In this document: one piece after another, positions 1 to 12,548 of the stretch | How positions within the stretch are numbered: the first letter of the stretch is position 1 | How the letters are laid out: the number at the start of each line of letters is the position of its first letter | IMG/VR virus record: IMGVR_UViG_2778261640_000001 | Coordinates: 1 to 12,548 of that record | Source: a virus | Lineage: Duplodnaviria > Heunggongvirae > Uroviricota > Caudoviricetes | Strand: one strand, 5' to 3' | Length of the DNA stretch: 12,548 nt | Program-made: the position numbers and the translations under genes | The notes under the pieces: generated by a model | What the model was told of the DNA's origin: nothing | Databases searched by the model: none | What the model saw: the letters and a program-made list of their open reading frames with translations, nothing else

Positions 1-411
1 ATGCCTGCCCCCGTCGTCCTGATCCTTGCGGCCGGGCGTGGAGAGCGCTTTCTCGCCTCCGGGGGAAATACCCATAAGTGTATCGGCTGGCGTCAGTCCC
101 CGGAGGTTGCGCCTTATCGCTGGCCATTTGAAGAAAACGGGAGAACTTTCGACCTTGCGATTGAACCGCAGATTACGACTAATGATCTGCGTCTGATGTT
201 GAGGCTGACTCTTGCCGGCGGAGGAATAACAATTGCCACTCAGGAAACTTTCAGGCCATATATTGAAAGCGGTAAGCTTGTATCGCTGCTTGATGACTTT
301 CTTCCACAATTTCCGGGCTTCTATCTGTATTTCCCACAGCGTCGCAATATTGCACCAAAGCTCCGCGCCCTGATTGACTACGTCAAAGAATGGCGGCAGC
401 AATTGGCTTAA
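1..411 (+). CDS. LysR-family transcriptional regulator, C-terminal part (5' end outside window); probably host flank
   Basis: ORF runs from the window edge to TAA at 409-411. From about residue 40 the translation reads like a LysR effector-binding domain C-terminus (RWPFEENGRTF, NDLRLMLRLTLAGGGITIATQETF, IESGKLVSLLDDF, FYLYFPQRRNIAPKLRALIDYVKEW). The first 40 residues are less typical. Confidence 0.55.
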   Translation: MPAPVVLILAAGRGERFLASGGNTHKCIGWRQSPEVAPYRWPFEENGRTFDLAIEPQITTNDLRLMLRLTLAGGGITIATQETFRPYIESGKLVSLLDDFLPQFPGFYLYFPQRRNIAPKLRALIDYVKEWRQQLA

Positions 412-671
412 ATGTCTGCACCTGCACTGCCTGATGTCAGAACAGTATTTTGATGAATTGCCAAGGTTACAATGGCACAAATACGGCACAGGAGGAAACG
501 TGGTGTATTTAAATATGGGGTAACTCTTTGATTTTAATGGTGCGATAATAGGAATGAACATTACAAGTTAACACATTGATTTATAATAGATTATAATATT
601 CAAAAAATATAACTATACACATATCTATACACACTGCGTGCGTCGCTTGTTTTTCGCACAATTAAAAATAA

Positions 672-975
672 GAAAAAAATTTTTTTTCGAAAGAACTGTT
701 CACACTGTTCACCTTTCTTTTTTCTCCTTTTATTTCAGTATGATAGGTGGTGAATAATGGGTGAAGGGTGAACATTCGATTCTTCACCTCCGGCATTCTG
801 CCGGTGTGACTCATACCGGTGATTAATCCCCCGTACTAAAAATCGCACAGGGAGAAAAAAGTTTTTTTTGATTTGATTGTTCACACTGTTCACCTTTCGT
901 TTTTCTCTTTTAATTTCAGTGTGATAACGGGTGAATATACGGTGAAGGGTGAACAGTGGATTGTTCACCTTCGGG
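672..975. repeat. crr: crr-like cis replication region: two ~120-bp direct repeats (672-792 and 852-975) separated by ~60 bp, each carrying TGTTCACC / GGTGAACA octamers
   Basis: Hand alignment shows the two copies nearly identical (ctgttcacactgttcacctttc ... atttcagt.tgata ... ggtgaagggtgaaca ... ttcacct). This matches the recalled P4 crr layout and sits immediately downstream of the alpha gene. Confidence 0.75.
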
Positions 976-988
976 GGATTCAGGGATG

Positions 989-1012
989 AAAAAAGACCGG
1001 CAGATGCCGGTC
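989..1012 (-). terminator. Rho-independent terminator of the leftward (alpha) operon
   Basis: On the minus strand an 8-bp inverted repeat GACCGGCA/TGCCGGTC (995-1012) is followed by six T (989-994), 17 nt after the alpha stop codon. Confidence 0.65.
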
Positions 1013-1028
1013 AGATGAGTCATGAGGG

Positions 1029-3362
1029 TCAGGTTGTTGCAGGGTCGTCACATTTTGGCAGCCAGTCGCCGTAGCTTTCCTCTTTCAGCGTCAGGTTGGT
1101 CTGTATCCCCTGTTTGGTATGGCGCTTCTCGTAATTCAGCCCGTATTCCTTCAGCATCACCGGCAGCCCCAGCCCGAACATTTTCAGACTGAGTACATTC
1201 CGGTAGCCGTTTGCCTCCATGTAGGCCAGATAGGCGTGATAGAGGTATTTACGGTAGTTACGCGGGATGATACTGGCGTTCCCCATATACATGCCGCTGG
1301 TCTGCGGCAGGGTTTCCAGATAGCCGATAAAATCAAACGTCGGGTCGGCATCCCGTTTGATGTTCAGTGCCTCGTCTGAGTTCTGCTGGGACTGAAGCAG
1401 TGACCGGGCGAGCATCGGGTCGCTGAACTTCTGCATCAGGTGACGCACGATGACCGCCAGCTCGCGGGTGATTTTGTCCTTAAGCTGCGGGTCGCGCTCC
1501 TGCGGGGCTATCTGTTCCGGGAAGTGAATAATCACCCGCCGGCGTGACACGCCGCCGCTGCGGTCGGTGAAGCGCATCGGGTTATTGTTGACGGCCAGAA
1601 TCACCGCCGGGATATGCGTGGAGTACGCATCCCGGTATTTCGGGTCAACGGACACCGCATCGCCGCCGGTGATGGCCTTGAGTCCGGCTCCGTCGCCGCT
1701 CCATTTTTCCTGGTCCGGCAGGCGTATCAGTGAGAAGCCAGTTAACGCGGCACGTTCACGCGGGGATTCCAGCGTCTCGATGGTGGCCGACGTGGCGTTA
1801 TCCTCCCCGGCCAGCAGGGTGGCTATTTCGGCCATGATACTTTTGCCGCTGCCGCCGGGACCGGTCACCTCCAGAAAGAGCTGCCAGTCGTAGCGGTTTG
1901 CCAGCACCATAAACAGTGCGGCCAGAATCACGTCGCGTTTTTCCGCACGACCACCGGCGGCACGGTCAAGCCAGCGCCAGAACGCGGGAGCGTGGGTTTC
2001 CAGCGTTTCCCCTTCCACCGGCGGGGTGAAATCCACATCGCACAGGGTGCGCATCCAGTGTGACGGACTGTGCGGGTGGAACGAGCCGTTCTGCGTGTCG
2101 AGCACGCCGTTACGAAAGCCAATCAGGCGGCGGGAGGGGGCTTCCTGCTGCGGAATAATCAGCTTCAGGGTGTCCACCACGGAGGCCACCTTCCCGGAGG
2201 AGAACGGCGCGCGCAGCCGCTGAAACAGCCCGGCCACATCCCGGGCAAAGTCCTGTGGTGGCAGCACCTTCCAGACACCATTTTCATAGCGGGACAGAAG
2301 CTGGCCGTTGGCATCGACCGCGAGCGCCTCGCCGTAATGCTCATAGATACGCATGGCCTTTTCGCTGGTACTCATGGCGGAAAACTCCGCTTCGCTCATG
2401 GTGTCGAACGGGCTTTCAGCCGGTGGCCGGATGGCATCATAAATGGCCTTACGGGTGGCTTCCCCGCCGTACTGCGTGAAGGCATCATTCCAGTCACCGA
2501 AGACCGGCGGCAGGGCAACAACACCTTCACACGCATCTGCGGCTGCGGCGGCTTTTGTCTGGCCGTCACCGCTGAGGTCACGGTCAGCAGCAAGGACAAT
2601 CTGACAGGCCGGATGCTTCTGCCGGGCAAGGCTGGCCAGAGAAAGGAGGTTCACGGAAGAAAGCGCCACCATCACCGTTTCACCGGTCAGGTGATGTACG
2701 GTAAGTGCGGTCGCGTATCCCTCCGCTATCCACAGACGTTTTCCGGCCTGATTCTGTCCTTCAAGGGTGTGACAGGTGCCCCTGACCTGTCCGCCTTTCA
2801 GGGTGCGCTTACGGCCGTCAGCACTGATTAACTGAAGGTTAACCAGTTCGCCGCTGTCGTCATACAGTGGCACCACAAGGTCACCGGCGCGCCAGCTCAC
2901 GCCACCGGCTCTGTGTGTGCCGGTCAGCATCCGGCATTCCCGGCCGGGAAAGCCCTTGCGGGTCAGGTAGGCGTTACCGGTTCCGGGACGGGTTTTCGCC
3001 ATCAGGGTTTGTGCCAGTGCGGCGGCGTTCTTCCGGGCGGCTTCTGTTTCAGCACCGGCGGCAGCCGTCACTGCCGGGTCAGCCGGGGGCAGACTGCCGG
3101 TCACGGCAGCCACCTTTGTGGCCGCGTCGGACGGGGAAACACCAAACACCTTTTCAACCAGTTTCAGGCCGTCACCGGCACCACACTGATTGCAGTACCA
3201 GGTGCCGCGCCCCTCCCTGTCATCAAAACGGAAGCGGTCACTCCCGCCACAGACCGGACAGGGCTGATGACGGTTTTTCAGCACCTGAATCCCCAGCGCC
3301 GGGAGAATACGCGGCCAGTGACCGAGCGCATGGCTGACGGTGGCGGTTACGTTCATTTTCAT
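1029..3362 (-). CDS. alpha: P4 alpha-type primase-helicase / origin-binding replication protein
   Basis: 777-aa ORF. N-terminal zinc-ribbon primase signature (CPVCGGSDRFRFDD ... WYCNQCG), a Toprim-like acidic stretch (LAADRDLSGDGQ), Walker A GPGGSGKS and a long C-terminal domain. AGGAG sits 9 nt upstream of the ATG. Length equals recalled P4 alpha. Confidence 0.9.
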   Translation of the reverse strand: MKMNVTATVSHALGHWPRILPALGIQVLKNRHQPCPVCGGSDRFRFDDREGRGTWYCNQCGAGDGLKLVEKVFGVSPSDAATKVAAVTGSLPPADPAVTAAAGAETEAARKNAAALAQTLMAKTRPGTGNAYLTRKGFPGRECRMLTGTHRAGGVSWRAGDLVVPLYDDSGELVNLQLISADGRKRTLKGGQVRGTCHTLEGQNQAGKRLWIAEGYATALTVHHLTGETVMVALSSVNLLSLASLARQKHPACQIVLAADRDLSGDGQTKAAAAADACEGVVALPPVFGDWNDAFTQYGGEATRKAIYDAIRPPAESPFDTMSEAEFSAMSTSEKAMRIYEHYGEALAVDANGQLLSRYENGVWKVLPPQDFARDVAGLFQRLRAPFSSGKVASVVDTLKLIIPQQEAPSRRLIGFRNGVLDTQNGSFHPHSPSHWMRTLCDVDFTPPVEGETLETHAPAFWRWLDRAAGGRAEKRDVILAALFMVLANRYDWQLFLEVTGPGGSGKSIMAEIATLLAGEDNATSATIETLESPRERAALTGFSLIRLPDQEKWSGDGAGLKAITGGDAVSVDPKYRDAYSTHIPAVILAVNNNPMRFTDRSGGVSRRRVIIHFPEQIAPQERDPQLKDKITRELAVIVRHLMQKFSDPMLARSLLQSQQNSDEALNIKRDADPTFDFIGYLETLPQTSGMYMGNASIIPRNYRKYLYHAYLAYMEANGYRNVLSLKMFGLGLPVMLKEYGLNYEKRHTKQGIQTNLTLKEESYGDWLPKCDDPATT

Positions 3363-3376
3363 GGTGTTGTTCTCCT

Positions 3377-3697
3377 TCAGTGCAGTACCGGCGCTTTTAT
3401 GTGACGGGCACAGAGTTCATCCATCACAACCAGCCCGAGAAAGGACAGCGACGGCGCGGCCTTCAGGGGGCCGGATTCCATTAAATCTTCCAGCAGGGCA
3501 CAGGCTATCTGACGCCCTTTTTCCTCACCGTGCTGGCGCAGATAAAAGCCTTCCAGCTCAGCGGCGATGGCCGCCTCCAGTGATTCAAGGGTGAGATGCG
3601 GGTAGCGGTGCTGACGTTCGCACACGGTCAGCCAGGCACAGGCGACAGCACGACGGTAAAGGGCTGCGCGTAAGACGGGCGGTAAGGGTGTTTTCAT
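3377..3697 (-). CDS. cnr: Cnr-like copy-number regulator (P4 orf106 equivalent)
   Basis: 106-aa ORF immediately upstream of alpha in the same operon, with GGGAGG 7 nt before the ATG. Position and length match recalled P4 cnr. Confidence 0.7.
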
Positions 3698-3832
3698 TTG
3701 CTTTCCTCCCTGTGACAGATGACTGCATTCCGTGCCGGTTGCATTAACTGATAAGGCATATCTGCGTCTCCTGAAGACGTGCGTATCCCTGCGCGAATAC
3801 GCACATTTAATTTTTCGGGGGTCGTTTTTTAA

Positions 3833-4288
3833 TTACAGATAATTGCGGTAACTGTTATCCGGGGTGGTTTCCGGGTCAGGCTCCATGCGGGGAATTTCCC
3901 GCCATTCCCGCGCCACCGGTGCCGCCCGGCTGACCGGAACAGGGGCCTGCGGGTAAATATCCAGATATTTTTCCCGCCATTTCTGTAATTCCGGGTCTCC
4001 GGCCATTTCTTTCAGTACCGCATGCCGGTTTACGGGGCTGCGTTTAAACAGGTCAGGACGGTCACAGGTAAATTCCCGCAGAAAACGCCCCAGCGGGATG
4101 TCTGTGGTGCGCCCGTCAGCGAGGATACGCACAAGGATACTGAATTTACGGCGGTACGGGTTCCAGACAATGTCCGGGCAGCGGTACGGCATTTCCCACG
4201 GAATACCGTCTTCCAGAATGCCGACCACGGCCACATCGGGAAAACCGGCAGAACGGTAAATCTCACCGGGCTGGGGAAAATCAAACAT
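3833..4288 (-). CDS. P4 orf151-like protein, function unknown
   Basis: 151-aa ORF with GGGGAGA upstream of the ATG. Its ATG overlaps the last codons of the upstream epsilon-like ORF, suggesting translational coupling. Length and position match P4 orf151. Confidence 0.65.
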   Translation of the reverse strand: MFDFPQPGEIYRSAGFPDVAVVGILEDGIPWEMPYRCPDIVWNPYRRKFSILVRILADGRTTDIPLGRFLREFTCDRPDLFKRSPVNRHAVLKEMAGDPELQKWREKYLDIYPQAPVPVSRAAPVAREWREIPRMEPDPETTPDNSYRNYL

Positions 4289-4568
4289 GCGTCCTGTCTC
4301 CCCGGTCTTTCTGCTGGGCGAGAAAATCGCGGCACAGGCCTTTGGCTTTCAGCTCATTCAGCACAAAATCAATATCTTCATTCAGGTAGCTGAAAATATG
4401 CGGAATGTAGAGCTGATGCAGGCCGGAGAGTTCACGGTGAATCAAATCACCCCCAACAAACTGGGATACGGCGCTGGCGCGGTTGAGCTTATGGTAAGCC
4501 TCAATGCTGAGGTGTTCACGGGCGTCATGACGCGCTGAGACGGTCTGAGGGGCTTTTTTATTACGCAC
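4281..4568 (-). CDS. epsilon: epsilon-like protein (P4 antirepressor position), 95 aa from a GTG start
   Basis: GTG at 4568-4566 is preceded by GGTGGTGGAGGTG and overlaps the kil stop. The track's longer 147-aa version would overlap kil out of frame and lacks a ribosome-binding site. Confidence 0.55.
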
Positions 4569-4758
4569 GGGACACCTCCACCACCGGCAGACGGGCAGCA
4601 AGGGAGAGCACATAGTCACGGACAAGGGAACGGCGGGCGCTGCGTTCATCACCGGCGACGGTGCGAAGCATACAGATACGGGGATGACGGTCTGCGCGAC
4701 GGACAGCCGCAAACACAAAGACAAATTCAGGGTGTGAGGGGGTAAGGGTTGTAGCCAT
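4561..4758 (-). CDS. kil: Kil-like 65-aa peptide, first translated gene downstream of PLE
   Basis: ATG at 4758-4756 is preceded by GGAGG at an 8-nt spacing and gives exactly 65 aa ([12 protein letters not shown]...VVEVSRA) to the TAA at 4563-4561. This is the 3' part of the longer eta frame. Confidence 0.6.
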
Positions 4759-5160
4759 GATGGCAGCCTCCGTTAGATAGCAGGTTACGCTATCGCCGGA
4801 GTTCTCACGCTCAATGGCGATAGCCCAGACGGGGGTGAGAATACCGGCTCTAACGGATACCGGCCAGCCCGGAGGCTGCCCCGCCTGAGCTACCATTGAC
4901 TCTGCGGCATAATGAGCGGACGCGGGCAGGATGCACGGAATGCCATCTGCACGACTGACCACACACCACACCATAATCTGGCGCTCTGTGGCGTTGATTG
5001 CGACACAAAAAAAGACGCATGGCGCGTCATATGTCGCCGTTAGATTGCTCGGGTTCTCACGCCCGGCTGCCGATTTTGCGGCAGCGGAAAAACTATATCC
5101 GCAAATGCCGGAAAAAGGCAAGCCAGAAAAAGGGACTTTTTGCAGAGCGGGCATCATCAT
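4561..5160 (-). CDS. eta: eta-like ORF (about 199 aa), same frame as kil, starting upstream of PLE and spanning the cI/seq region
   Basis: The in-frame ATGATGATG at 5160-5152 overlaps the vis stop. Starting at 5160 gives 199 aa. The frame stays open across seqA, the seqB region and seqC. The track's upstream start at 5205 lies inside vis. Confidence 0.4.
4770..4810 (-). promoter_or_regulatory. seqC-like target, complementary to seqB; overlaps the kil ribosome-binding site
   Basis: Minus strand reads gcgtgagaactccggcgatagcgtaacctgctatctaacgg. Its ends (gtgagaa ... tctaacgg) are complementary to the seqB candidate. Confidence 0.55.
4812..4900 (-). ncRNA. cI: CI-RNA-like immunity RNA; boundaries approximate, seqB core at 4835-4856
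   Basis: Minus-strand ccgttagagccggtattctcac (4856-4835) is complementary to both flanking elements. Exact ends cannot be set from sequence alone. Confidence 0.35.
5037..5062 (-). promoter_or_regulatory. seqA-like target, complementary to seqB, in the PLE leader
   Basis: Minus strand reads gcgtgagaacccgagcaatctaacgg, sharing gtgagaa and tctaacgg with seqC, both complementary to seqB. Confidence 0.55.
5092..5121 (-). promoter_or_regulatory. PLE-like sigma70 promoter of the leftward operon
   Basis: Minus strand -35 TTGCCT (5121-5116), 18-nt spacer, -10 TATAGT (5097-5092). The start would lie about 25 nt upstream of seqA. Confidence 0.5.
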
Positions 5161-5423
5161 GCGTCGTACCCCCGTTTGCGTCCGGCAATGCGCCCGGCCA
5201 TCCATGCGGTGACTTCTGAGTGCAGCCAGGCCACATTTTTACCGCCAAGACTCACCTGCGGCGGAAATTCCCCCTTACGGATGAGTTCATAGATGGTCGA
5301 GCGTGACAGGCCGCACAGGTGCATCACTTCCGGCAGACGTAAAAAACGCTCCTGCGTGATGTCCGGCAGCGGCATCAGTGGCGTCACAGGGGCGGGAGAC
5401 GGGGAAGAAAAAACAGCTTGCAT
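5157..5423 (-). CDS. vis: Vis-like AlpA-family helix-turn-helix regulator / excision factor
   Basis: 88-aa ORF with an AlpA-type motif ([44 protein letters not shown]). GAGG sits 8 nt upstream of the ATG. Length and position match P4 vis. Confidence 0.8.
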
Positions 5424-5525
5424 CGGGCTACCTCGTTAATGTCCATACAGCACCGGATAAGTCCGTCCGGCTTCGGGTAGCGCTTTATTTTGTGAATATT
5501 TTCAGCAGACGCAACAGGGGGGATT

Positions 5526-5543
5526 TGTTCCGGCAGCCTTACA
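5526..5543. promoter_or_regulatory. TGT-N12-ACA dyad, an Ogr/Delta-type activator site, upstream of vis (PLL-like late promoter)
   Basis: TGT (5526-5528), 12 nt, ACA (5541-5543), centred about 110 bp upstream of the vis ATG. Confidence 0.45.
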
Positions 5544-5570
5544 ATGCTTGTGTGTTTTTTGTTCATCTCC

Positions 5571-5600
5571 ACTTAAAGTCATTTAAAGCCACTTAAAGCA
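5571..5600. repeat. Three tandem 10-bp repeats (acttaaagtc / atttaaagcc / acttaaagca)
   Basis: Read directly between the PLL-side dyad and the ori iterons. Function unknown. Confidence 0.5.
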
Positions 5601-5702
5601 ATTCGTAATTTTTATAGTGAAATACAAATCGTTTTTTCTTATTCATTCCCGGCGAATTAATAAAAACAAACAGTAATAAACAGCACAAAAAGCCCATCAA
5701 CG

Positions 5703-5807
5703 GGTGAACAGTGGTGAACAGACGGTGAACAGTCATTACTGCGATTGTTCACCATTTAACTTACTGTATTACTTATCTTTTTTCTTATGGTGAACAGAGG
5801 TGAACAG
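5703..5807. other. ori: ori-like replication origin: six TGTTCACC-type iterons in direct and inverted orientation
   Basis: GGTGAACAG at 5703, 5713, 5724, 5789 and 5799, plus inverted TGTTCACC at 5746, the same octamer as in crr. Flanked by AAACAAACAGTAA direct repeats (about 5665 and 5821). Lies about 4.9 kb from crr. Confidence 0.7.
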
Positions 5808-5885
5808 TAAAATATAAAAAAACAAACAGTAAGCCGGTTTTTCCTGCGACCTTTTCCTGGCTTGCCGGTGTGAGGATGAGTCTCC

Positions 5886-5903
5886 TGTGTCAGGGCTGGC
5901 ACA
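5886..5903. promoter_or_regulatory. TGT-N12-ACA dyad, an Ogr/Delta-type activator site, of a Psid-like late promoter
   Basis: TGT (5886-5888), gtcagggctggc, ACA (5901-5903), centred about 80 bp upstream of the sid ATG. Confidence 0.55.
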
Positions 5904-5974
5904 TCTGCAATGCGTCGTGTTGTTGTCCGGTGTACGTCACAATTTTCTCAACCTGAAGTGACGAGGAGCCGAAA

Positions 5975-6709
5975 ATGTCTGACAACACCATCCCTGAATA
6001 TCTGCAATCCGCGCTGGCACAACTGGAAAAGGCCAGAGCCGCCCATCTTGAGAACGCCCGTCTGATGGATGAGACCGTCACGGCCATTGAACGGGCAGAG
6101 CAGGAAAAAAATGCGCTGGCGCAGGCCGACGGAAACGACGCTGACGACTGGCGCACGGCCTTTCGTGCAGCCGGTGGTGTCCTGAGCGACGAGCTGAAAC
6201 AGCGCCACATTGAGCGCGTGGCACGCCGGGAGCTGGTACAGGAATATGACAATCTGGCCGTGGTGCTGAATTTTGAACGCGAACGCCTGAAAGGGGCGTG
6301 TGACAGCACGGCCACCGCCTACCGGAAGGCACATCATCACCTTCTGAGTCTGTATGCAGAGCATGAGCTGGAACACGCCCTGAATGAAACCTGTGAGGCG
6401 CTTGTCCGGGCAATGCATCTGAGCATTCTGGTACAGGAAAATCCGCTCGCCAACACCACCGGCCATCAGGGCTACGTCGCACCGGAAAAGGCTGTCATGC
6501 AGCAGGTGAAATCATCGCTGGAACAGAAAATTAAACAGATGCAAATCAGCCTCACCGGCGAGCCGGTTCTCCGGCTGACCGGACTGTCAGCGGCAACACT
6601 CCCGCACATGGATTATGAGGTGGCAGGCACACCGGCACAGCGCAAGGTGTGGCAGGACAAAATAGACCAGCAGGGTGCAGAGCTTAAGGCCAGAGGACTG
6701 CTGTCATGA
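5975..6709 (+). CDS. sid: Sid-like external capsid size-determination scaffold
   Basis: 244-aa ORF, coiled-coil-like and rich in A/E/L/Q. GAGGAG sits 7 nt before the ATG. Length and position match P4 sid. Confidence 0.8.
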   Translation: MSDNTIPEYLQSALAQLEKARAAHLENARLMDETVTAIERAEQEKNALAQADGNDADDWRTAFRAAGGVLSDELKQRHIERVARRELVQEYDNLAVVLNFERERLKGACDSTATAYRKAHHHLLSLYAEHELEHALNETCEALVRAMHLSILVQENPLANTTGHQGYVAPEKAVMQQVKSSLEQKIKQMQISLTGEPVLRLTGLSAATLPHMDYEVAGTPAQRKVWQDKIDQQGAELKARGLLS

Positions 6710-7206
6710 TTTACTGCCCGTCGTGTGGACATGTTGCTCACACTCGTCGCGCACATTTCATGGACGATGGCACCAAGATAATGATTGCACAGTGCCGGAA
6801 TATTTATTGCTCTGCGACATTTGAAGCGAGTGAAAGCTTTTTCTCTGACAGTAAAGATTCAGGAATGGAATACATTTCAGGCAAACAGAGATACCGCGAT
6901 TCACTGACTTCTGCCTCCGGCAGTATGAAACGCCCGAAAAGAATGCTTGTTACCGGATATTGTTGTCGGAGATGTAAAGGCCTTGCACTGTCAAGAACAT
7001 CGCGGCGTCTGTCTCAGGAAGTCACCGAGCGTTTTTATGTGTGCACGGATCCGGGCTGTGGTCTGGTGTTTAAAACGCTTCAGACCATCAACCGTTTCAT
7101 TGTCCGCCCGGTCACACCGGACGAACTGGCAGAAAGCCTGCATGAAAAACAGGAACTGCCGCCAGTACGGTTAAAAACACAATCATATTCGCTGCGTCTG
7201 GAATGA
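6706..7206 (+). CDS. delta: Delta-like late-gene transactivator with two Ogr-type zinc-finger modules
   Basis: 166-aa ORF whose ATG overlaps the sid stop (ATGA). Two cysteine modules: CPSCGHVAH...CRNIYCSATF and CRRCKGLAL...CTDPGCGLVF. Confidence 0.85.
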   Translation: MIYCPSCGHVAHTRRAHFMDDGTKIMIAQCRNIYCSATFEASESFFSDSKDSGMEYISGKQRYRDSLTSASGSMKRPKRMLVTGYCCRRCKGLALSRTSRRLSQEVTERFYVCTDPGCGLVFKTLQTINRFIVRPVTPDELAESLHEKQELPPVRLKTQSYSLRLE

Positions 7207-7279
7207 GGGCTGTCGGTTAACACCGGCCGTCGCCGCACACCGTATTTTTATTCTTCAGCATGATGAGAAAGAGATAACG

Positions 7280-7852
7280 ATGGAAAGCACAGCCTTACAG
7301 CAGGCCTTTGACACCTGTCAGAATAACAAAGCAGCATGGCTGCAACGCAAAAATGAGCTGGCAGCGGCCGAACAGGAATACCTGCGGCTTCTGTCAGGAG
7401 AAGGCAGAAACGTCAGTCGCCTGGACGAATTACGCAATATTATCGAAGTCAGAAAATGGCAGGTGAATCAGGCCGCCGGTCGTTATATTCGTTCGCATGA
7501 AGCCGTTCAGCACATCAGCATCCGCGACCGGCTGAATGATTTTATGCAGCAGCACGGCACAGCACTGGCGGCGGCACTGGCACCGGAGCTGATGGGCTAC
7601 AGTGAGCTGACGGTCATTGCCCGAAACTGTGCCATTCAGCGTGCCACAGATGCCCTGCGTGAAGCCCTTCTGTCCTGGCTTGCGAAGGGGGAAAAAATTA
7701 ATTATTCCGCACAGGATAGCGACATTTTAACGACCATCGGATTCAGGCCTGACGCGGCTTCGGTGGATGACAGCCGTGAAAAATTCACCCCTGCGCAGAA
7801 CATGATTTTTTCGCGTAAAAGTGCGCAACTGGCATCACGTCAGTCTGTGTAA
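7280..7852 (+). CDS. psu: Psu-like polarity suppression / capsid decoration protein
   Basis: 190-aa ORF, last gene of the sid-delta-psu operon. Length matches P4 psu. Confidence 0.8.
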   Translation: MESTALQQAFDTCQNNKAAWLQRKNELAAAEQEYLRLLSGEGRNVSRLDELRNIIEVRKWQVNQAAGRYIRSHEAVQHISIRDRLNDFMQQHGTALAAALAPELMGYSELTVIARNCAIQRATDALREALLSWLAKGEKINYSAQDSDILTTIGFRPDAASVDDSREKFTPAQNMIFSRKSAQLASRQSV

Positions 7853-7888
7853 AATTCCCCGAAAATCCGCCTGTTTTTACTGAAAAAA

Positions 7889-7916
7889 GCCATGCATCGA
7901 TAAGGTGCATGGCTTT
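7889..7916 (+). terminator. Hairpin terminator candidate downstream of psu
   Basis: GCCATGCA (7889-7896), 9-nt loop, TGCATGGC (7906-7913), then TTTG. The T tract is short, so possibly a weak terminator. Confidence 0.45.
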
Positions 7917-8016
7917 GCATGCGTTTCCCTGCCTCATTTTCTGCAGACCGCGCCATTCCCGGCGCAGCCTGAGCGTGTCAGTACAACTGCATTAAAACCG
8001 CCCCACAAAGCGGGCG

Positions 8017-8035
8017 GGCGTGGCGGGGAGAGCAT
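8017..8035. other. cos: cos-like site (putative P2/P4-type cohesive end)
   Basis: GGCGTGGCGGGGAGAGCAT matches 16 of 19 positions of the P2/P4 cohesive end as I recall it (GGCGAGGCGGGGAAAGCAC, from memory). It lies between psu and the cargo, where P4 cos is expected. Confidence 0.4.
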
Positions 8036-8052
8036 TGCGCGCCAAGTAATTT

Positions 8053-9675
8053 TTAATTTATTTTTTTATAAAGGCCATCTAACCCAGGTTTCAAAAGAAA
8101 TTGAGATGGAGCCCCGTTCTTAAGATCACCTGAACCATTATACCGTTTCGTAGAATGCATTAGCATAATGCCTTTTCTTGCTCGTGTAATTCCTACGTAA
8201 TGAAGATTTATGCATTGCTGTTCATTTTCGAATACAACATCATAGCTTCCTTCTATGAAAACTCTTTTAGGCAAAATCCAATCATACAGATCCAAATGAA
8301 AAACAAAGTCAAACTCAAGACCTTTAGACTTATGTAACGTCATTATTTGTACTTCATCACTTCTAACATCCAAATAATTATTTTGCATCCTCGGAGTAAC
8401 TAATATCTCTGAAAGAGCGGACTTATGATGCTGCTCGATTTCAGTCCCTAAAAGAGTTACTACAATTTTATTTATTACGTCAATAAGAAAGGCATCTGTA
8501 ACACTTCTAACCTGCTTAATAGCCTTACGGATACGAGTAGCCTCGCTCCTTTTGACACTGCTTCCCAAAACCCCCTCCAAAATAGACTGAGCAGTTTTAT
8601 TTAAGTTATACCTGTAACATAATAAATCATTAACAAGACCAGAAACCTTACCACCAGCCTTTGTTAAATCATTATCCAAATAAGCCCTATTAGAAACAAC
8701 TAAATTATCAGAAACTAGCTCCGCGCAAGCATTGCTTCTTACCAATATAGCAATCTCCTTATTATCAGATATTGAAAATTTATTTTTTACATTATCAAGA
8801 ATTTCACCAATCCATTTAGCTATATCAATTTGATTGCCATCAACACATTTTCTATAAACAAAAATCTCATCACACGGAGCTAGTTGACATTCAAAATCTT
8901 TAATTCTATTGGCGTAATTTACTATAGATGGGTGACATCTGTGATTTACTGTAATTTCCTTATGACAGAAACCACTATCATTCATGAAATCTTTTAGTGA
9001 ATCCGAACTGCGGTGAGAATACAAATAAATTGATTGATCCAAATCACCAACGATAATAAGAGGCATCCCTAGCGTTGGTATGAACTTGAAAACCTGATGA
9101 GTAAAATAACCGGTATCCTGATACTCATCGACAAAAAAACCAATATACTTTGCCATTAAATACCGCTGACAAGAATATGATGTTCTAACTATATAAAAAG
9201 CCAAGTGAGGAAGGAAGTCTAAAATCAACATCCCCTTTAAATAAATATCCCTCAGAGAACCCATGCCCTCAAATGAAGTATTAGAATAAAAATCCACTCG
9301 GTCAAAGTACTTATTTGTCTTATCTTTTAATTCTTGAGAAAGATCTATATACTTTACTACTTCGAGAGCGCTTTCGTTTCTGCCCCATACTTGCCTTACA
9401 AAAGGTAATATTATTTCGTTAATGAAAAACTTATCAATAGTACCAAAGAAGCTAGAATTTAACTCTGCTCCCAATTTTCTACATCTGGATTTTAGCTCCT
9501 CGCTGGATTTATTCGTATATGATAACGCAACAACTCCCTGATAATCCTTGGAATGGGATAAACAGGCAGCAATCTTATGGACGAGTATTGTTGTTTTACC
9601 ACTTCCTGGGCATGCAGTTATAACCAGATTACCTTCGTAATCAATTGCATCTAACTGTTCCTTAGTTAGCTTCAT
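8053..9675 (-). CDS. gajB: UvrD/PcrA/Rep-like SF1 helicase, GajB-like partner of a class 2 OLD nuclease
   Basis: 540-aa ORF with all SF1 helicase motifs read by eye: I ACPGSGKTT, Ia ALSYTNKSSEEL, II FVDEYQDT, III IIVGDLDQSIY, IV VNHRCHPSIVNYAN, V IMTLHKSKGLEFDFVF, VI YVGITRARKG. ATGA overlap with the upstream gene and GAGGTGA ribosome-binding site. AT-rich. Confidence 0.75.
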   Translation of the reverse strand: MKLTKEQLDAIDYEGNLVITACPGSGKTTILVHKIAACLSHSKDYQGVVALSYTNKSSEELKSRCRKLGAELNSSFFGTIDKFFINEIILPFVRQVWGRNESALEVVKYIDLSQELKDKTNKYFDRVDFYSNTSFEGMGSLRDIYLKGMLILDFLPHLAFYIVRTSYSCQRYLMAKYIGFFVDEYQDTGYFTHQVFKFIPTLGMPLIIVGDLDQSIYLYSHRSSDSLKDFMNDSGFCHKEITVNHRCHPSIVNYANRIKDFECQLAPCDEIFVYRKCVDGNQIDIAKWIGEILDNVKNKFSISDNKEIAILVRSNACAELVSDNLVVSNRAYLDNDLTKAGGKVSGLVNDLLCYRYNLNKTAQSILEGVLGSSVKRSEATRIRKAIKQVRSVTDAFLIDVINKIVVTLLGTEIEQHHKSALSEILVTPRMQNNYLDVRSDEVQIMTLHKSKGLEFDFVFHLDLYDWILPKRVFIEGSYDVVFENEQQCINLHYVGITRARKGIMLMHSTKRYNGSGDLKNGAPSQFLLKPGLDGLYKKIN

Positions 9676-11372
9676 AATTCACCTCTAGCAATTTTCAGTG
9701 CATGTATTAGAGGTCTGGCTATATCTTTGCTCTTCAGTTCAGTTAAAAAAGCTTTTTTCTCTTTAATTAACTCACGCATACGTATAGCTTTTTTTCCTCT
9801 CAAATAATCAGCGGCATCATCTAGATTATCCTTACTTGCATAATCAAGAACATGCTTCGAAAAGTCATTAGCAAGATCTCCTTCAAGATCAAAAAAAGAT
9901 ATATAAACGCCGTTAGGATTTATTATTGGTGAAATGGTTCCCCACTTAGTATGCAAAGCTTTACTATCTATAGGAATACTTGAGTTTGGTTCTTTATTCT
10001 CTCCACACAGTGCTAACGCCCTATTTACACCAGCATATTGCCATTCATTCTTATGAGGTACTTTTGAAGCATCATTGTCTGTTCTTACGATCCAATTAAT
10101 ATTTAGAGCTGTTAATATTTTTCTATAAACTTCAAATTGGATACCATCAACAGAAAGAATGCTGATGTTATAATAATCAAGATCAATACTTAATGCTTTT
10201 GCTAATTCAGTGTAAAAAATCACCTCAGATGGTCCCTCGACCAAAAAAACCACGTTAGCAAAAAATGCCTCAGCAGGAATAATACTCATCCGGTAGCCCA
10301 TTCCATCCCATGCAGAGCTAATACAATCAGAACATCCATTACTTGCGGCTAGAGTCTCTCCATCATCATAGTATAGTTTTATGATTGAATCAGGTTTAAA
10401 ATTCACTGCAATTTGGGGTGAGTGGCTTGTAACGATTGCTTGGCCTGGAAGTTTATCGATTAAATAGGCCGCCAATTTTCTTTGCTGGTGAGGAAATAGA
10501 TGTGCTTCCGGTTCCTCTATACAATAGATCACTACTTCACTTTCAACATCATGCTCGCGAACACTTTTTGCTTTCCATAACGCAAGAAGGATTTGGTTAT
10601 TAAACCCATCGCCACCAAGCATTAGTTTCTTCCCATTTGTATTCGCACTTAATTCTAATTTCTCTATAAACTGGTCAATCCCTATTGCACCAGTATCAAG
10701 TTGAACAGTTAATCTATCATGAGTATAGGATAACTTTCTAAGTTCCTCGTTAAGCTCTTCTGTTGCTGATGCAACATAACTTATTCCTTTAACTTTTTCA
10801 TTTACTTCAGTAAGTAGCTTATTTAATTCAGTAAAAACCGCCCCATCATTTTCAGTATCCTTTTCACTACGAACTTCTTGCGCCAATCTTAAAAGATGCT
10901 TCTTTTCAATTTTAATGTATTTTTCAAGATCTCTTTGCGAATTTATATACCTTAGACTTAAACACTTTAAGTAAAATCTATTAGGAACCTCATCAAAATT
11001 GTTATGTTCATGACTAAGTAATATCTTGTAATCCATAGTTAATGATGAAGCAAGATACTTAATGTATGTTTCCCCTTCATCGCTAACATACCCTCCTAAT
11101 TTAGATATTACAGCATCTTCACTAACATCTGTAAACTTGATAGTGATTTCTATATTTTCAACCTGTTCACCTGTCGAATTTACATGAAAGTCATTGCTTT
11201 TTGGTTCTAGATCTAATTCAGATAAACTTTTATCAAGTAATAATCGAATGGCATATAATAGGTTGGTCTTTCCAACATCATTTGCACCTATAATCAAATT
11301 AGTTTCATTAAAATTAATAACAGCATCACAGTAATTCCTGAATCCTTTAATATAAACAGTTTCAATTCTCAT
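9672..11372 (-). CDS. gajA: OLD-family ABC-ATPase plus Toprim nuclease, GajA-like
   Basis: 566-aa ORF. Walker A GANDVGKTN near the N-terminus, Walker B / H-loop (VVIYCIEEPEAHLFP ... IVTSHSPQ), C-terminal Toprim motifs (VVFLVEGPSEV, WIVRTDNDAS). The ATG directly follows the int stop (TAAATG). AT-rich. Confidence 0.75.
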   Translation of the reverse strand: MRIETVYIKGFRNYCDAVINFNETNLIIGANDVGKTNLLYAIRLLLDKSLSELDLEPKSNDFHVNSTGEQVENIEITIKFTDVSEDAVISKLGGYVSDEGETYIKYLASSLTMDYKILLSHEHNNFDEVPNRFYLKCLSLRYINSQRDLEKYIKIEKKHLLRLAQEVRSEKDTENDGAVFTELNKLLTEVNEKVKGISYVASATEELNEELRKLSYTHDRLTVQLDTGAIGIDQFIEKLELSANTNGKKLMLGGDGFNNQILLALWKAKSVREHDVESEVVIYCIEEPEAHLFPHQQRKLAAYLIDKLPGQAIVTSHSPQIAVNFKPDSIIKLYYDDGETLAASNGCSDCISSAWDGMGYRMSIIPAEAFFANVVFLVEGPSEVIFYTELAKALSIDLDYYNISILSVDGIQFEVYRKILTALNINWIVRTDNDASKVPHKNEWQYAGVNRALALCGENKEPNSSIPIDSKALHTKWGTISPIINPNGVYISFFDLEGDLANDFSKHVLDYASKDNLDDAADYLRGKKAIRMRELIKEKKAFLTELKSKDIARPLIHALKIARGEL

Positions 11373-12548
11373 TTACATTTTCCTTAAAAATAACGTTGAA
11401 GAGAAAAAGTTCAACATTTTCCTTCTTTCTTCAATGAATGTTGCATGATTATATGTACCGCGAATTCTATTACTATCAACGTGAGCGAGCTGTAATTCAA
11501 TATATTGAGAATTAAAGCCAGCATCATGTAAAATAGTTGACATCATATGCCTAAATCCATGACCTGTAAGCCTGCCACCGTATCCAAGTCGCTTTATAAG
11601 CTGATTGATAGCGGCCTCACTCATTGGCTTACTCGGATCATTTCGCCCAGGAAAAACATAACGATAGTTGCCTGTCATTGTCTTGAGTTCATTGAGTAAA
11701 TCTAACGCCTGAGTAGACAATGGCACAAGATGCGGCCTGCGCATTTTCATCCTTTCAGCAGGAATTTCCCAAATAGCGTTATCCAGATCAAATTCTTGCC
11801 ATAATGCCGCGCGTAATTCGATGGTTCTCACGCCCGTAATCATCAGTAATTTCGTTGCTATCTGGACAATTTTACTCCCGGTGTAACTCTCTAAGGCACG
11901 CAGAAATTCGGGTATCTCATCAGCTTTTAAGAACGGGAAATGATTGGATTGATGCACTTCGAGAGCGCTGGAGAGATCCGCAGCAGGATTGTACTCCGCC
12001 CTACCTGTTGCAATTGCGTAGCGAAACACCTCGGAGCAACGCTGCCGCACTTTACGCATTTTCTCCAACGCACCACGTTTCTCAATTTTACGCAGTACGT
12101 TCAGCAGCTCTAGCGGTTTAATCTCTCCCACAGGCCTTGTTCCAACATAAGGAAAAATGTCGTTCTTAAACGCTTCCATGATGTCTGATGCGTATCCAGC
12201 TGACCATTTAGCAGATTTAAGTTGATGCCACTCTCTGGCGATCTTTTCGAAGGCGTTCTCTGACTCTGTTTGCAGAGCCAGCTTTTGCTCTTTTCGAACC
12301 TCACTAGGGTTCTTTCCTTCTGCCACAAGTTTTCGAGCTTCATCACGACGGGAACGAGCATCGGCAAGGGTGATCGTTGGGTAAACGCCAAGCGAGATCA
12401 TCTTGGGTTTACCGGCGTAGCGATAGCGGAACCGCCAGCTCTTGCTTCCATTAGGTTCTATAAGCAATGACAAGCCTTGCCCATCCCCAAGCGTATAGGG
12501 TTTATCTTCAGGCTTAGCGCGGCGAATCTGCATATCGTTTAAAGGCAT
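11373..12548 (-). CDS. int: P4-type tyrosine integrase; ATG at the window edge
   Basis: 391-aa ORF. N-terminus MPLNDMQIRRAKPEDKPY is typical of P4-family integrases. The C-terminal catalytic region carries HGFRHMMST and LAHVDSNRIRGTYNHA with the likely catalytic tyrosine. Confidence 0.85.
   Translation of the reverse strand: MPLNDMQIRRAKPEDKPYTLGDGQGLSLLIEPNGSKSWRFRYRYAGKPKMISLGVYPTITLADARSRRDEARKLVAEGKNPSEVRKEQKLALQTESENAFEKIAREWHQLKSAKWSAGYASDIMEAFKNDIFPYVGTRPVGEIKPLELLNVLRKIEKRGALEKMRKVRQRCSEVFRYAIATGRAEYNPAADLSSALEVHQSNHFPFLKADEIPEFLRALESYTGSKIVQIATKLLMITGVRTIELRAALWQEFDLDNAIWEIPAERMKMRRPHLVPLSTQALDLLNELKTMTGNYRYVFPGRNDPSKPMSEAAINQLIKRLGYGGRLTGHGFRHMMSTILHDAGFNSQYIELQLAHVDSNRIRGTYNHATFIEERRKMLNFFSSTLFLRKM

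What the first reader, a model, noticed from the sequence alone, without database searches (positions are those of the whole stretch)
8053..11372. Defence cargo in the P4 variable slot: an OLD-family ATPase-Toprim gene plus a UvrD-like helicase (Gabija-like)
The 3.3 kb between the cos-like site and the integrase stop, where P4 carries gop-beta-cII, holds two tightly packed minus-strand genes. The first has Walker A, Walker B / H-loop and a Toprim domain (EGPSE, DND); the second has SF1 helicase motifs I to VI. Overlapping stop and start (ATGA) indicates one operon. That is the class 2 OLD / Gabija (GajA-GajB) layout, not PARIS (no helicase there) and not a standalone P2-Old-type gene. The satellite variable slot is a known hotspot for anti-phage systems. 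I rate it as probably a known family in a satellite context; the open question is whether it is a divergent subtype.
Basis: partly seen in the sequence, partly recalled or inferred. Interest (0 to 1): 0.8.

Follow-up and report, generated by a model that had tools for sequence, protein, structure and literature searches.

The report
Known Gabija defence operon in P4 satellite
The two genes are an intact GajA-GajB (Gabija) anti-phage operon in the variable slot of a P4-like satellite in E. coli, a combination that is already catalogued and has apparently already been tested in the lab, so it is real but ordinary.

Summary
Two minus-strand ORFs lie at 9672-11372 (566 aa) and 8053-9675 (540 aa). 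They overlap by ATGA and fill the 3.3 kb between a P4-type cos site (8016-8034) and the integrase stop (11373-11375).

The interpretation also holds. ORF1 matches PADLOC GajA end to end (E 3.9e-261) and ORF2 matches GajB (E 3.4e-224). The best solved structures are B. cereus GajA and GajB. Every functionally tested GajA residue is conserved: K35, H317, E379, D432/D434, D495 and K528. GajB has SF1 motifs I-VI, including DEYQD.

It is not new:
- Rousset et al. 2022 (PMC9122126) list these exact proteins (WP_001356949 + WP_001356948) in Table S1A. Table S1B ranks the arrangement as P4 psu-int hotspot system #6, with 153 occurrences, noted "Gabija (Doron et al., 2018)".
- Wu et al. (bioRxiv 10.1101/2022.08.21.504612) cloned "Gabija from ECOR49". 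Both of their primers map exactly onto a 99.7%-identical copy of this locus. They report about 10^5-fold protection against lambda, lost in ATPase, Toprim and helicase mutants.

It is not a new subtype. PADLOC already has models for this clade, and relatives sit in another P4-like satellite, an E. coli W island, and Erwinia and Enterococcus plasmids.

Verdict: already known, low interest.

The parts
9672..11372 (-). gajA: class 2 OLD-family nuclease of 566 aa, with an N-terminal ABC-type ATPase-like nucleotide sensor and a C-terminal Toprim nuclease.
   Evidence: PADLOC GajA PDLC00066 E 3.9e-261, covering 1-564 of the protein and 1-565 of 567 profile positions. Pfam AAA_15 plus OLD-like_TOPRIM. 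Best PDB matches are B. cereus GajA: 1.1e-35 with the single sequence and 1.1e-57 with a profile. K35, H317, E379, G410, D432, D434, D495 and K528 are conserved and invariant in 5 homologues. RefSeq names it 'ATP-dependent nuclease' WP_001356949.
8053..9675 (-). gajB: SF1A UvrD/PcrA/Rep-like helicase or (d)NTPase of 540 aa.
   Evidence: PADLOC GajB PDLC00123 E 3.4e-224, covering 1-539. Pfam UvrD-helicase plus UvrD_C. Best PDB matches are B. cereus GajB: 3.6e-33 with the single sequence and 1e-58 with a profile. Motifs II-VI, including DEYQD 183-187, were located by regex; motif I PGSGKT 23-28 was read from the translation. RefSeq WP_001356948.
9672..9675 (-). ATGA overlap between the gajA stop and the gajB start, which is an operon and translational-coupling signature.
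   Evidence: The sequence reads ...GGTGAATTATGAAGC.... The same 4-nt overlap is annotated in the Erwinia and Enterococcus homologues.
11370..11375 (-). TAAATG junction: the integrase stop codon is followed immediately by the gajA start codon.
   Evidence: The 62%-identical allele in strain MLI110 has the same arrangement with a 1-nt spacer.
11373..12548 (-). Tyrosine integrase of the satellite. It is thrW/tRNA-Thr specific and forms one boundary of the variable slot. Its 5' end may run off the window.
   Evidence: Annotated as tyrosine-type recombinase WP_001580016, next to tRNA-Thr and proA. G+C falls to 0.28-0.37 in its last 200 nt. Homologues that presumably carry other cargo (they lack a near-identical Gabija; their cargo was not inspected) lose similarity over the last 70-250 nt.
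8016..8034 (+). P4-type cos cohesive-end sequence, the other boundary of the slot.
   Evidence: It matches 16 of 18 bases of the P4 cos string. P4 homology ends at 8016, which is the end of the linear P4 record.
7998..8017 (-). G+C-rich hairpin followed by TTTTAATG, read on the gajB strand. It could act as a terminator for the operon, and it lies in cos-adjacent sequence conserved in P4.
   Evidence: Terminator-like site in the consensus scan. The number of such sites in the region is no higher than in shuffles, so this is weak evidence.
7280..7852 (+). psu, the conserved P4 gene that marks the left side of the psu-int hotspot.
   Evidence: 98% identical to P4 psu. Annotated as 'phage polarity suppression protein'.

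Best explanation
This is an intact type-I-style Gabija anti-phage operon (gajA-gajB). It is the cargo in the psu/cos-int variable slot of a P4-like satellite integrated at thrW in E. coli.

Mechanism, inferred by homology to the B. cereus system:
- GajA and GajB assemble into a 4:4 complex.
- At normal ATP/dNTP levels, the GajA ATPase-like domain (K35, H317) binds nucleotide and keeps the Toprim nuclease (E379, D432/D434, D495, K528) off.
- Phage replication and transcription, or another defence such as Tmn, lower nucleotide levels. GajA then nicks or cleaves DNA.
- The resulting DNA ends stimulate (d)ATP/(d)GTP hydrolysis by GajB (DEYQD). This deepens the depletion and aborts the infection.

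The satellite benefits because the cargo protects its host and excludes competing phages.
For: Family membership:
- PADLOC full-length matches: GajA 865 bits and GajB 743 bits.
- Pfam domain sets agree.
- PDB best hits are B. cereus GajA and GajB, well ahead of other OLD nucleases and of PcrA, Rep and UvrD.

Residue mapping by profile alignment: BcGajA K35, H320, E379, D432, D434, D511 and K541 correspond to window K35, H317, E379, D432, D434, D495 and K528. The functional roles of these residues come from Cheng 2021, PMC8136825 and Antine 2024, PMC10781630. All are invariant across 5 homologues down to 38% identity.

Operon structure: ATGA overlap.

Context: 98% P4 identity over alpha through psu, the P4 immunity RNA C4 and its targets, and integrase plus tRNA-Thr.

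Prior cataloguing: WP_001356949 + WP_001356948 appear in Table S1A, and the arrangement is system #6, 153 occurrences, 'Gabija', in Table S1B of PMC9122126.

Prior experiment:
- Forward primer FN0399 for 'Gabija from ECOR49' matches window 11340-11372 at 32 of 33 bases.
- The first 32 bases of FN0399 and the gene-specific part of reverse primer FN0400 both match exactly in E. coli VR50. There the locus is 99.7% identical, and the reverse primer lies 2 nt after the psu stop.
- That study mutated K35 and H317. This numbering fits this protein, whereas B. cereus has H320.
- It reports about 10^5-fold protection against lambda, lost in ATPase, Toprim and UvrD-domain mutants.
Against: - No biochemistry exists for this clade. 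Pairwise similarity to the B. cereus proteins is distant (126 and 118 bits), so the 4:4 stoichiometry, the sequence specificity of nicking and the nucleotide thresholds are extrapolated.
- A 2026 preprint (PMC13001434) reports that Toprim and GajB catalytic mutants keep the synergy with Tmn. At least one output of E. coli Gabija therefore does not need the canonical nuclease step.
- The ECOR49 genome itself was not available. Identity of the tested allele with this one rests on primer mapping and residue numbering.
- The native promoter is not identified. The ECOR49 clone was expressed from pBAD.
- In one of the 18 carrier genomes gajA is annotated as frameshifted, so not every copy is functional.
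Confidence: 0.95

Rival explanations
1. It is a class 2 OLD nuclease plus UvrD-like helicase pair that serves the satellite's own DNA metabolism (replication, recombination or packaging) rather than defence.
For: UvrD, Rep and PcrA relatives are DNA-repair and replication helicases, as shown by the NCBIfam partial hits to PcrA, Rep and UvrD. The genes abut int and cos.
Against: - All NCBIfam housekeeping models score far below their cut-offs, for example pcrA 120 bits against 911.
- The slot is interchangeable cargo: P4 itself carries gop-beta-cII there and replicates normally.
- The same clade occurs on non-satellite islands and plasmids.
- The ECOR49 clone protects against lambda.
Confidence: 0.02
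2. It is a PARIS-like, Septu-like or retron-effector-like ATPase system that has been misread as Gabija because of the shared AAA_15 ATPase domain.
For: PADLOC AriA 4.4e-31. NCBIfam PtuA 7e-11 and retron Eco8 effector 1e-7.
Against: - These hits cover only the N-terminal ATPase domain or fragments of it, and fall far below curated cut-offs (PtuA 42 bits against 500).
- The GajA model scores 865 bits over the full length.
- The Toprim domain is fused in the same polypeptide.
- The partner is a UvrD-like helicase, not a DUF4435 protein or HNH nuclease.
- No reverse transcriptase or msr-msd RNA is present.
Confidence: 0.01
3. It is a decaying, non-functional Gabija remnant in a defective satellite.
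For: Some carriers have a frameshifted psu (strains S14 and 1448) or a frameshifted gajA (strain 1448). The satellite sits at the site of a cryptic-prophage-like locus.
Against: - In this window both ORFs are intact and full length relative to the profiles.
- All catalytic residues are kept.
- The 18 copies are at least 99% identical.
- The P4 core genes alpha, sid, delta and psu, and the cos site, are intact and 98% identical to P4.
Confidence: 0.02

Closest known systems
P4 psu-int hotspot system #6 'Gabija' (Rousset et al. 2022, Cell Host Microbe, PMC9122126, Tables S1A and S1B)
   Same: Same proteins (WP_001356949 + WP_001356948), same slot and same orientation relative to int. The representative sequences printed in Table S1B (each truncated with '...') match the window proteins over the printed stretch, apart from one residue in GajB (A63 against S63).
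   Different: Nothing of substance. That paper catalogued the system (153 occurrences) but did not test it: neither sequence nor name appears in its Table S2 of tested systems.
Gabija from E. coli ECOR49 (Wu et al., 'Synergistic anti-phage activity of bacterial defence systems', bioRxiv 10.1101/2022.08.21.504612)
   Same: The cloning primers map to the gajA start and to the first bases after psu in this locus type. Both match exactly in the 99.7%-identical VR50 copy, and the forward primer matches 32 of 33 bases in the window. The mutant numbering K35/H317 fits this protein.
   Different: The ECOR49 sequence itself was not seen here. The last base of the forward primer would give F11L relative to the window. 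The clone was expressed from pBAD rather than the native context.
Bacillus cereus VD045 GajA-GajB (prototype Gabija; PDB 8SM3, 8J4T, 8JQ9, 8U7I and others)
   Same: Same two-gene order, same domain architecture and same catalytic residues. It is the best structural-database match for both proteins.
   Different: Sequence similarity is distant: 126 and 118 bits pairwise. GajB here is about 45 residues longer (540 against 494 aa). The H-loop His is at 317 rather than 320. The 'invariant' Toprim Gly aligns one position off (Bc G409/G410 against D409/G410).
Class 2 OLD nucleases (Burkholderia pseudomallei and Xanthomonas campestris OLD, PDB 6NK8 and 6NJV)
   Same: Toprim active-site architecture (E, DxD) and an adjacent UvrD/PcrA/Rep-like helicase gene, which together define class 2.
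   Different: These match only the Toprim region, at E about 1e-6 to 1e-12. Gabija is the defence-characterised subset of this class.
PARIS (AriA-AriB), also a P4-hotspot system
   Same: Shares the AAA_15 ABC-type ATPase and the satellite slot.
   Different: In PARIS the Toprim-like nuclease is a separate DUF4435 protein and there is no helicase. Here the Toprim is fused to the ATPase and the partner is a UvrD-like helicase.

Membership tests
Gabija (GajA-GajB) | GajA has an N-terminal ABC-type ATPase-like domain with a Walker A lysine, Walker B and an H-loop histidine (BcGajA K35, H320). | tested here: met
   GANDVGKT 29-36 (K35), VVIYCIEEPE 280-289 and SHS 316-318 (H317). These align to BcGajA K35 and H320, whose roles are given. 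Pfam AAA_15 3.4e-33.
Gabija (GajA-GajB) | GajA has a C-terminal OLD-type Toprim nuclease with a catalytic Glu and DxD, plus the second-site Asp and Lys (BcGajA E379, D432, D434, D511, K541). | tested here: met
   E379, D432, D434, D495 and K528 align to these residues in the profile-to-PDB alignment. All are invariant in 5 homologues. Pfam OLD-like_TOPRIM 5e-19.
Gabija (GajA-GajB) | GajB is an SF1A UvrD-like helicase with a P-loop and a DEXQD box. | tested here: met
   PGSGKT 23-28 (translation); DEYQD 183-187 and motifs III-VI. Pfam UvrD-helicase plus UvrD_C. Best PDB hit is GajB at 1e-58, ahead of PcrA at 1e-39.
Gabija (GajA-GajB) | Two adjacent co-oriented genes with gajA upstream of gajB. 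| tested here: met
   The 4-nt ATGA overlap at 9672-9675, with both genes on the minus strand.
Gabija (GajA-GajB) | Full-length match to curated defence-system profiles for both proteins. | tested here: met
   PADLOC PDLC00066 E 3.9e-261 (1-564 against 1-565 of 567) and PDLC00123 E 3.4e-224 (1-539 against 3-539 of 540).
Gabija (GajA-GajB) | Assembly into a 4:4 GajAB supramolecular complex. | not testable with these tools
   Known for B. cereus. No complex prediction was run here. Inferred by homology only.
Gabija (GajA-GajB) | Nucleotide-inhibited DNA nicking by GajA and DNA-end-stimulated (d)NTP hydrolysis by GajB. | not testable with these tools
   This is biochemistry from Cheng 2021, as summarised by Wu et al.. 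Only the conservation of the residues involved could be checked.
Gabija (GajA-GajB) | Anti-phage phenotype that depends on both genes. | not testable with these tools
   From the literature: ECOR49 Gabija gives about 10^5-fold protection against lambda, lost in ATPase, Toprim and UvrD mutants. What was tested here is the link to this locus: both primers map exactly onto a 99.7%-identical copy.
Class 2 OLD-family nuclease | An OLD ATPase-Toprim protein encoded next to a UvrD/PcrA/Rep-like helicase. | tested here: met
   The definition is quoted.
PARIS (AriA-AriB) | An AAA_15 ATPase paired with a separate DUF4435 Toprim-like effector, with no helicase. | tested here: not met
   No DUF4435 hit. 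The partner is a UvrD-like helicase and the Toprim is fused to the ATPase.
Class 1 OLD (P2 Old type) | A standalone OLD gene without a helicase partner. | tested here: not met
   The helicase gene overlaps the OLD gene by 4 nt.
P4-like satellite psu-int defence hotspot cargo | Located between psu/cos and the integrase of a P4-like element. | tested here: met
   psu at 7280-7852, cos at 8016-8034, int from 11373. This protein pair is listed in Table S1A.

The most novel reading that the evidence does not exclude
The only unexplored angle is regulatory. The gajA start codon abuts the integrase stop codon (TAAATG). This junction is kept in a second satellite allele whose GajA is only 62% identical, and the low-G+C, fast-diverging tract reaches about 200 nt into the 3' end of int. 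Gabija in P4-like satellites might therefore be co-transcribed or translationally coupled with int. That would tie defence expression to the satellite's integration and excision programme. It would also mean that cargo swaps exchange the integrase C-terminus together with the defence genes.
Probability: 0.12. Interest if true: 0.35.

Novelty: already known. Interest (0 to 1): 0.1.

Why it matters
It adds little. The finding is a correct reading of raw sequence, but the same proteins in the same satellite slot were catalogued as Gabija in 2022. An apparently identical allele has since been used in published phage-defence and mutagenesis experiments. Its remaining value is as a clean, well-bounded example of a defence cassette packed between cos and int of a P4-like satellite. 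The conserved int-stop/gajA-start junction is also a small lead on how such cargo is expressed.

Tried and rejected
- PARIS, Septu or retron-effector reading: rejected. Those profiles hit only the shared ATPase domain and fall far below the GajA score or their curated cut-offs.
- New or divergent subtype: rejected. PADLOC has full-length models for this clade, and relatives of 38-72% identity with the same layout exist elsewhere.
- The plasmid-borne E. coli Gabija that co-localises with tmn might be the same allele: rejected. There are no near-identical plasmid hits, and the one E. coli plasmid hit shown in the spread listing is 24.8% identical over 57% of GajA.
- Mapping the ECOR49 reverse primer onto the window: no ungapped match with up to 3 mismatches, only a 14/15 match with one gap just after psu. 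It is also absent from P4 itself. Fetching other carriers resolved this, because the primer is exact in VR50.
- Promoter and terminator scan of 7700-12548: counts are no higher than in shuffles, so no native promoter can be named.
- Rfam scan: only the P4 immunity RNAs (C4, isrK, a1b1) at 4813-5098, and nothing inside the cargo.
- Structure prediction, fold search and the large protein-database searches were not run. Sequence-level evidence was already decisive.
Full report
**Observation**

- The upstream stop and downstream start share ATGA at 9672-9675.
- The upstream ATG follows the integrase stop codon with no spacer (TAAATG).
- The two genes are 34% G+C. The P4 core genes are 48-61% and the integrase is 45%.
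- At that composition, open frames of more than 500 codons cannot be chance (my arithmetic: about 7% stop codons per random codon).

**Context**

- Window 674-8016 is 98% identical to satellite phage P4, from the crr region through alpha, cI/epsilon, sid, delta and psu to the end of the linear P4 record.
- A cos-type sequence lies at 8016-8034, 18 nt from the gajB stop.
- Rfam finds the P4 immunity RNA C4 and its targets at 4813-5098.
- In complete E. coli genomes the element sits between the paoD/LysR remnant and tRNA-Thr/proA, which is a thrW-integrated P4-like satellite.
- In P4 itself, the interval between cos and int holds gop, beta and cII.

**Identity of the genes**

| | ORF1 (566 aa) | ORF2 (540 aa) |
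|---|---|---|
| Pfam | AAA_15 (3.4e-33) + OLD-like_TOPRIM (5e-19) | UvrD-helicase (1.3e-24) + UvrD_C (3.3e-19) |
| PADLOC | GajA PDLC00066, E 3.9e-261, 1-564 of 566 | GajB PDLC00123, E 3.4e-224, 1-539 of 540 |
| Best PDB match, single sequence | B. cereus GajA, 1e-35 | B. cereus GajB, 4e-33 |
| Best PDB match, 5-sequence profile | GajA, 1e-57 | GajB, 1e-58 |

The next-best PADLOC models are other GajA and GajB clusters. Outside Gabija, AriA scores only 107 bits, and only on the shared ATPase domain. In the PDB searches, other OLD nucleases and PcrA, Rep and UvrD score well below the Gabija proteins.

**Catalytic residues**

Cheng et al. 2021 (PMC8136825) mutated BcGajA K35, H320, E379, D511 and K541. 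Antine et al. (PMC10781630) define the Toprim site as E379, D432, D434 and G409. The profile alignment maps these onto the window protein:

| BcGajA | Window GajA | Motif in window |
|---|---|---|
| K35 | K35 | GANDVGKT |
| H320 | H317 | SHS |
| E379 | E379 | EGPSE |
| D432/D434 | D432/D434 | DND |
| D511 | D495 | DLE |
| K541 | K528 | KKAIRM |

All of these are invariant in five homologues down to 38% identity. The glycine aligns one position off (D409/G410 against G409/G410). GajB carries PGSGKT, DEYQD, GDLDQ, TVNHR, HKSKGLE and YVGITRA.

**Mechanism**

Homology shows that the parts for the Gabija mechanism are all present. The mechanism itself is inferred from the B. cereus work:
- GajA is a nucleotide-inhibited nicking endonuclease.
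- GajA and GajB form a 4:4 complex.
- DNA ends stimulate nucleotide hydrolysis by GajB, which leads to abortive infection (summarised).

One caveat comes from a 2026 preprint. It reports that Toprim and GajB catalytic mutants of E. coli Gabija still synergise with Tmn, so not every output needs the nuclease.

**Comparison with what is known**

- Rousset et al. 2022 (PMC9122126) defined the P4 psu-int hotspot.
[quoted passage not shown] These are the RefSeq accessions annotated on the 100%-identical copy of this locus.
- Their Table S1B ranks the arrangement as system #6 with 153 occurrences. The representative sequences printed there are truncated; over the printed stretch they match the window proteins apart from one GajB residue.
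- They did not test it.
- A later Psu study also names Gabija among the systems enriched between psu and int.

**Prior experiment**

Wu et al. (bioRxiv 10.1101/2022.08.21.504612) cloned 'Gabija from ECOR49'.
- The gene-specific part of forward primer FN0399 matches window 11340-11372 at 32 of 33 bases.
- The gene-specific part of reverse primer FN0400 matches the window only imperfectly, just after psu.
- In E. coli VR50 the gajAB DNA is 99.7% identical to the window. There, the first 32 bases of the forward primer and the reverse primer both match exactly, and the reverse primer starts 2 nt after the psu stop.
- Their mutant numbering (K35A, H317A) fits this protein and not the B. cereus one, which has H320.
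- They report about 10^5-fold protection against lambda and no effect on T1 alone. Activity is lost in ATPase, Toprim and UvrD-domain mutants, and there is synergy with Tmn.

**Is it a divergent subtype?**

It is a clade distant from the B. cereus prototype, but not an unrecognised one. PADLOC has dedicated models for it, and relatives with the same layout are easy to find:

| Relative | GajA / GajB identity |
|---|---|
| Another thrW P4-like satellite, strain MLI110 | 62% / 49% |
| selC island, E. coli W | 53% / 38% |
| Erwinia plasmid | 72% / 56% |
| Enterococcus plasmid | 38% / 33% |

The near-identical allele is present in 18 of 5,426 complete E. coli genomes, always on the chromosome.

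**Verdict**

The system is already known, so interest is low. The only loose thread is how the cargo is expressed. The int-stop/gajA-start junction is conserved between two alleles that have diverged to 62% identity in GajA. The low-G+C, variable tract also extends into the last roughly 200 nt of int. The consensus scan identifies no promoter.

Noticed in passing
window 11373-11620 (3' end of int) and 11370-11375: G+C drops to 0.28-0.37 in the last 200 nt of int. Most related integrases in other E. coli genomes (not near-identical at the Gabija locus; their cargo was not inspected) lose nucleotide similarity over the last 70-250 nt. The cargo-exchange boundary therefore seems to lie inside int. 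The gajA ATG abuts the int stop codon, and this junction is also kept (with a 1-nt spacer) in the 62%-identical MLI110 allele.
   Followed up: partly
window GajA/GajB compared with L002, L003, L004, L005: In every comparison GajB has diverged more than GajA: 49 vs 62%, 38 vs 53%, 56 vs 72% and 33 vs 38% identity. This would fit stronger diversifying pressure, or weaker constraint, on the helicase subunit.
   Followed up: no
window 1-559: This stretch is the E. coli chromosomal flank (paoD end and LysR-family remnant) next to the satellite's right end. It is also 99.3% identical to the terminal 560 bp of the phage record OP434518.1 (Escherichia phage phi458), where it is annotated 'tail assembly protein'. 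That looks like host DNA or a misannotation in the phage record.
   Followed up: partly
L008 (strain 1448) and L009 (strain S14), copies of this locus: Among the 18 near-identical copies, gajA is annotated as frameshifted in strain 1448, and psu is annotated as frameshifted in strains 1448 and S14. Some carriers are therefore decaying satellites or have sequencing errors.
   Followed up: no
window 7998-8017 (-) and 7884-7915 (+): A G+C-rich hairpin followed by a T-run lies immediately next to cos, read on the gajB strand. It sits in P4-conserved sequence and could terminate whatever cargo is inserted. A separate hairpin (GCCATGCA...TGCATGGC followed by TTT) follows psu on the plus strand.
   Followed up: no
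window 4561-5205 (-) and 4813-5098 (-): The P4 immunity region is intact: C4 antisense RNA, isrK and the a1b1 targets all score above Rfam gathering thresholds. The overlapping ORF here is 214 aa and is annotated 'Icd-like cell division inhibitor' in RefSeq, whereas P4 has a 137-aa cI ORF.
   Followed up: no
window 674-8016 compared with 11373-12548: The element is a mosaic. Its core is 98% identical to P4, but its integrase is a different, thrW (tRNA-Thr)-specific one that megablast does not match to P4 int. (From my own knowledge, P4 integrates at a leucine tRNA gene.)
   Followed up: partly
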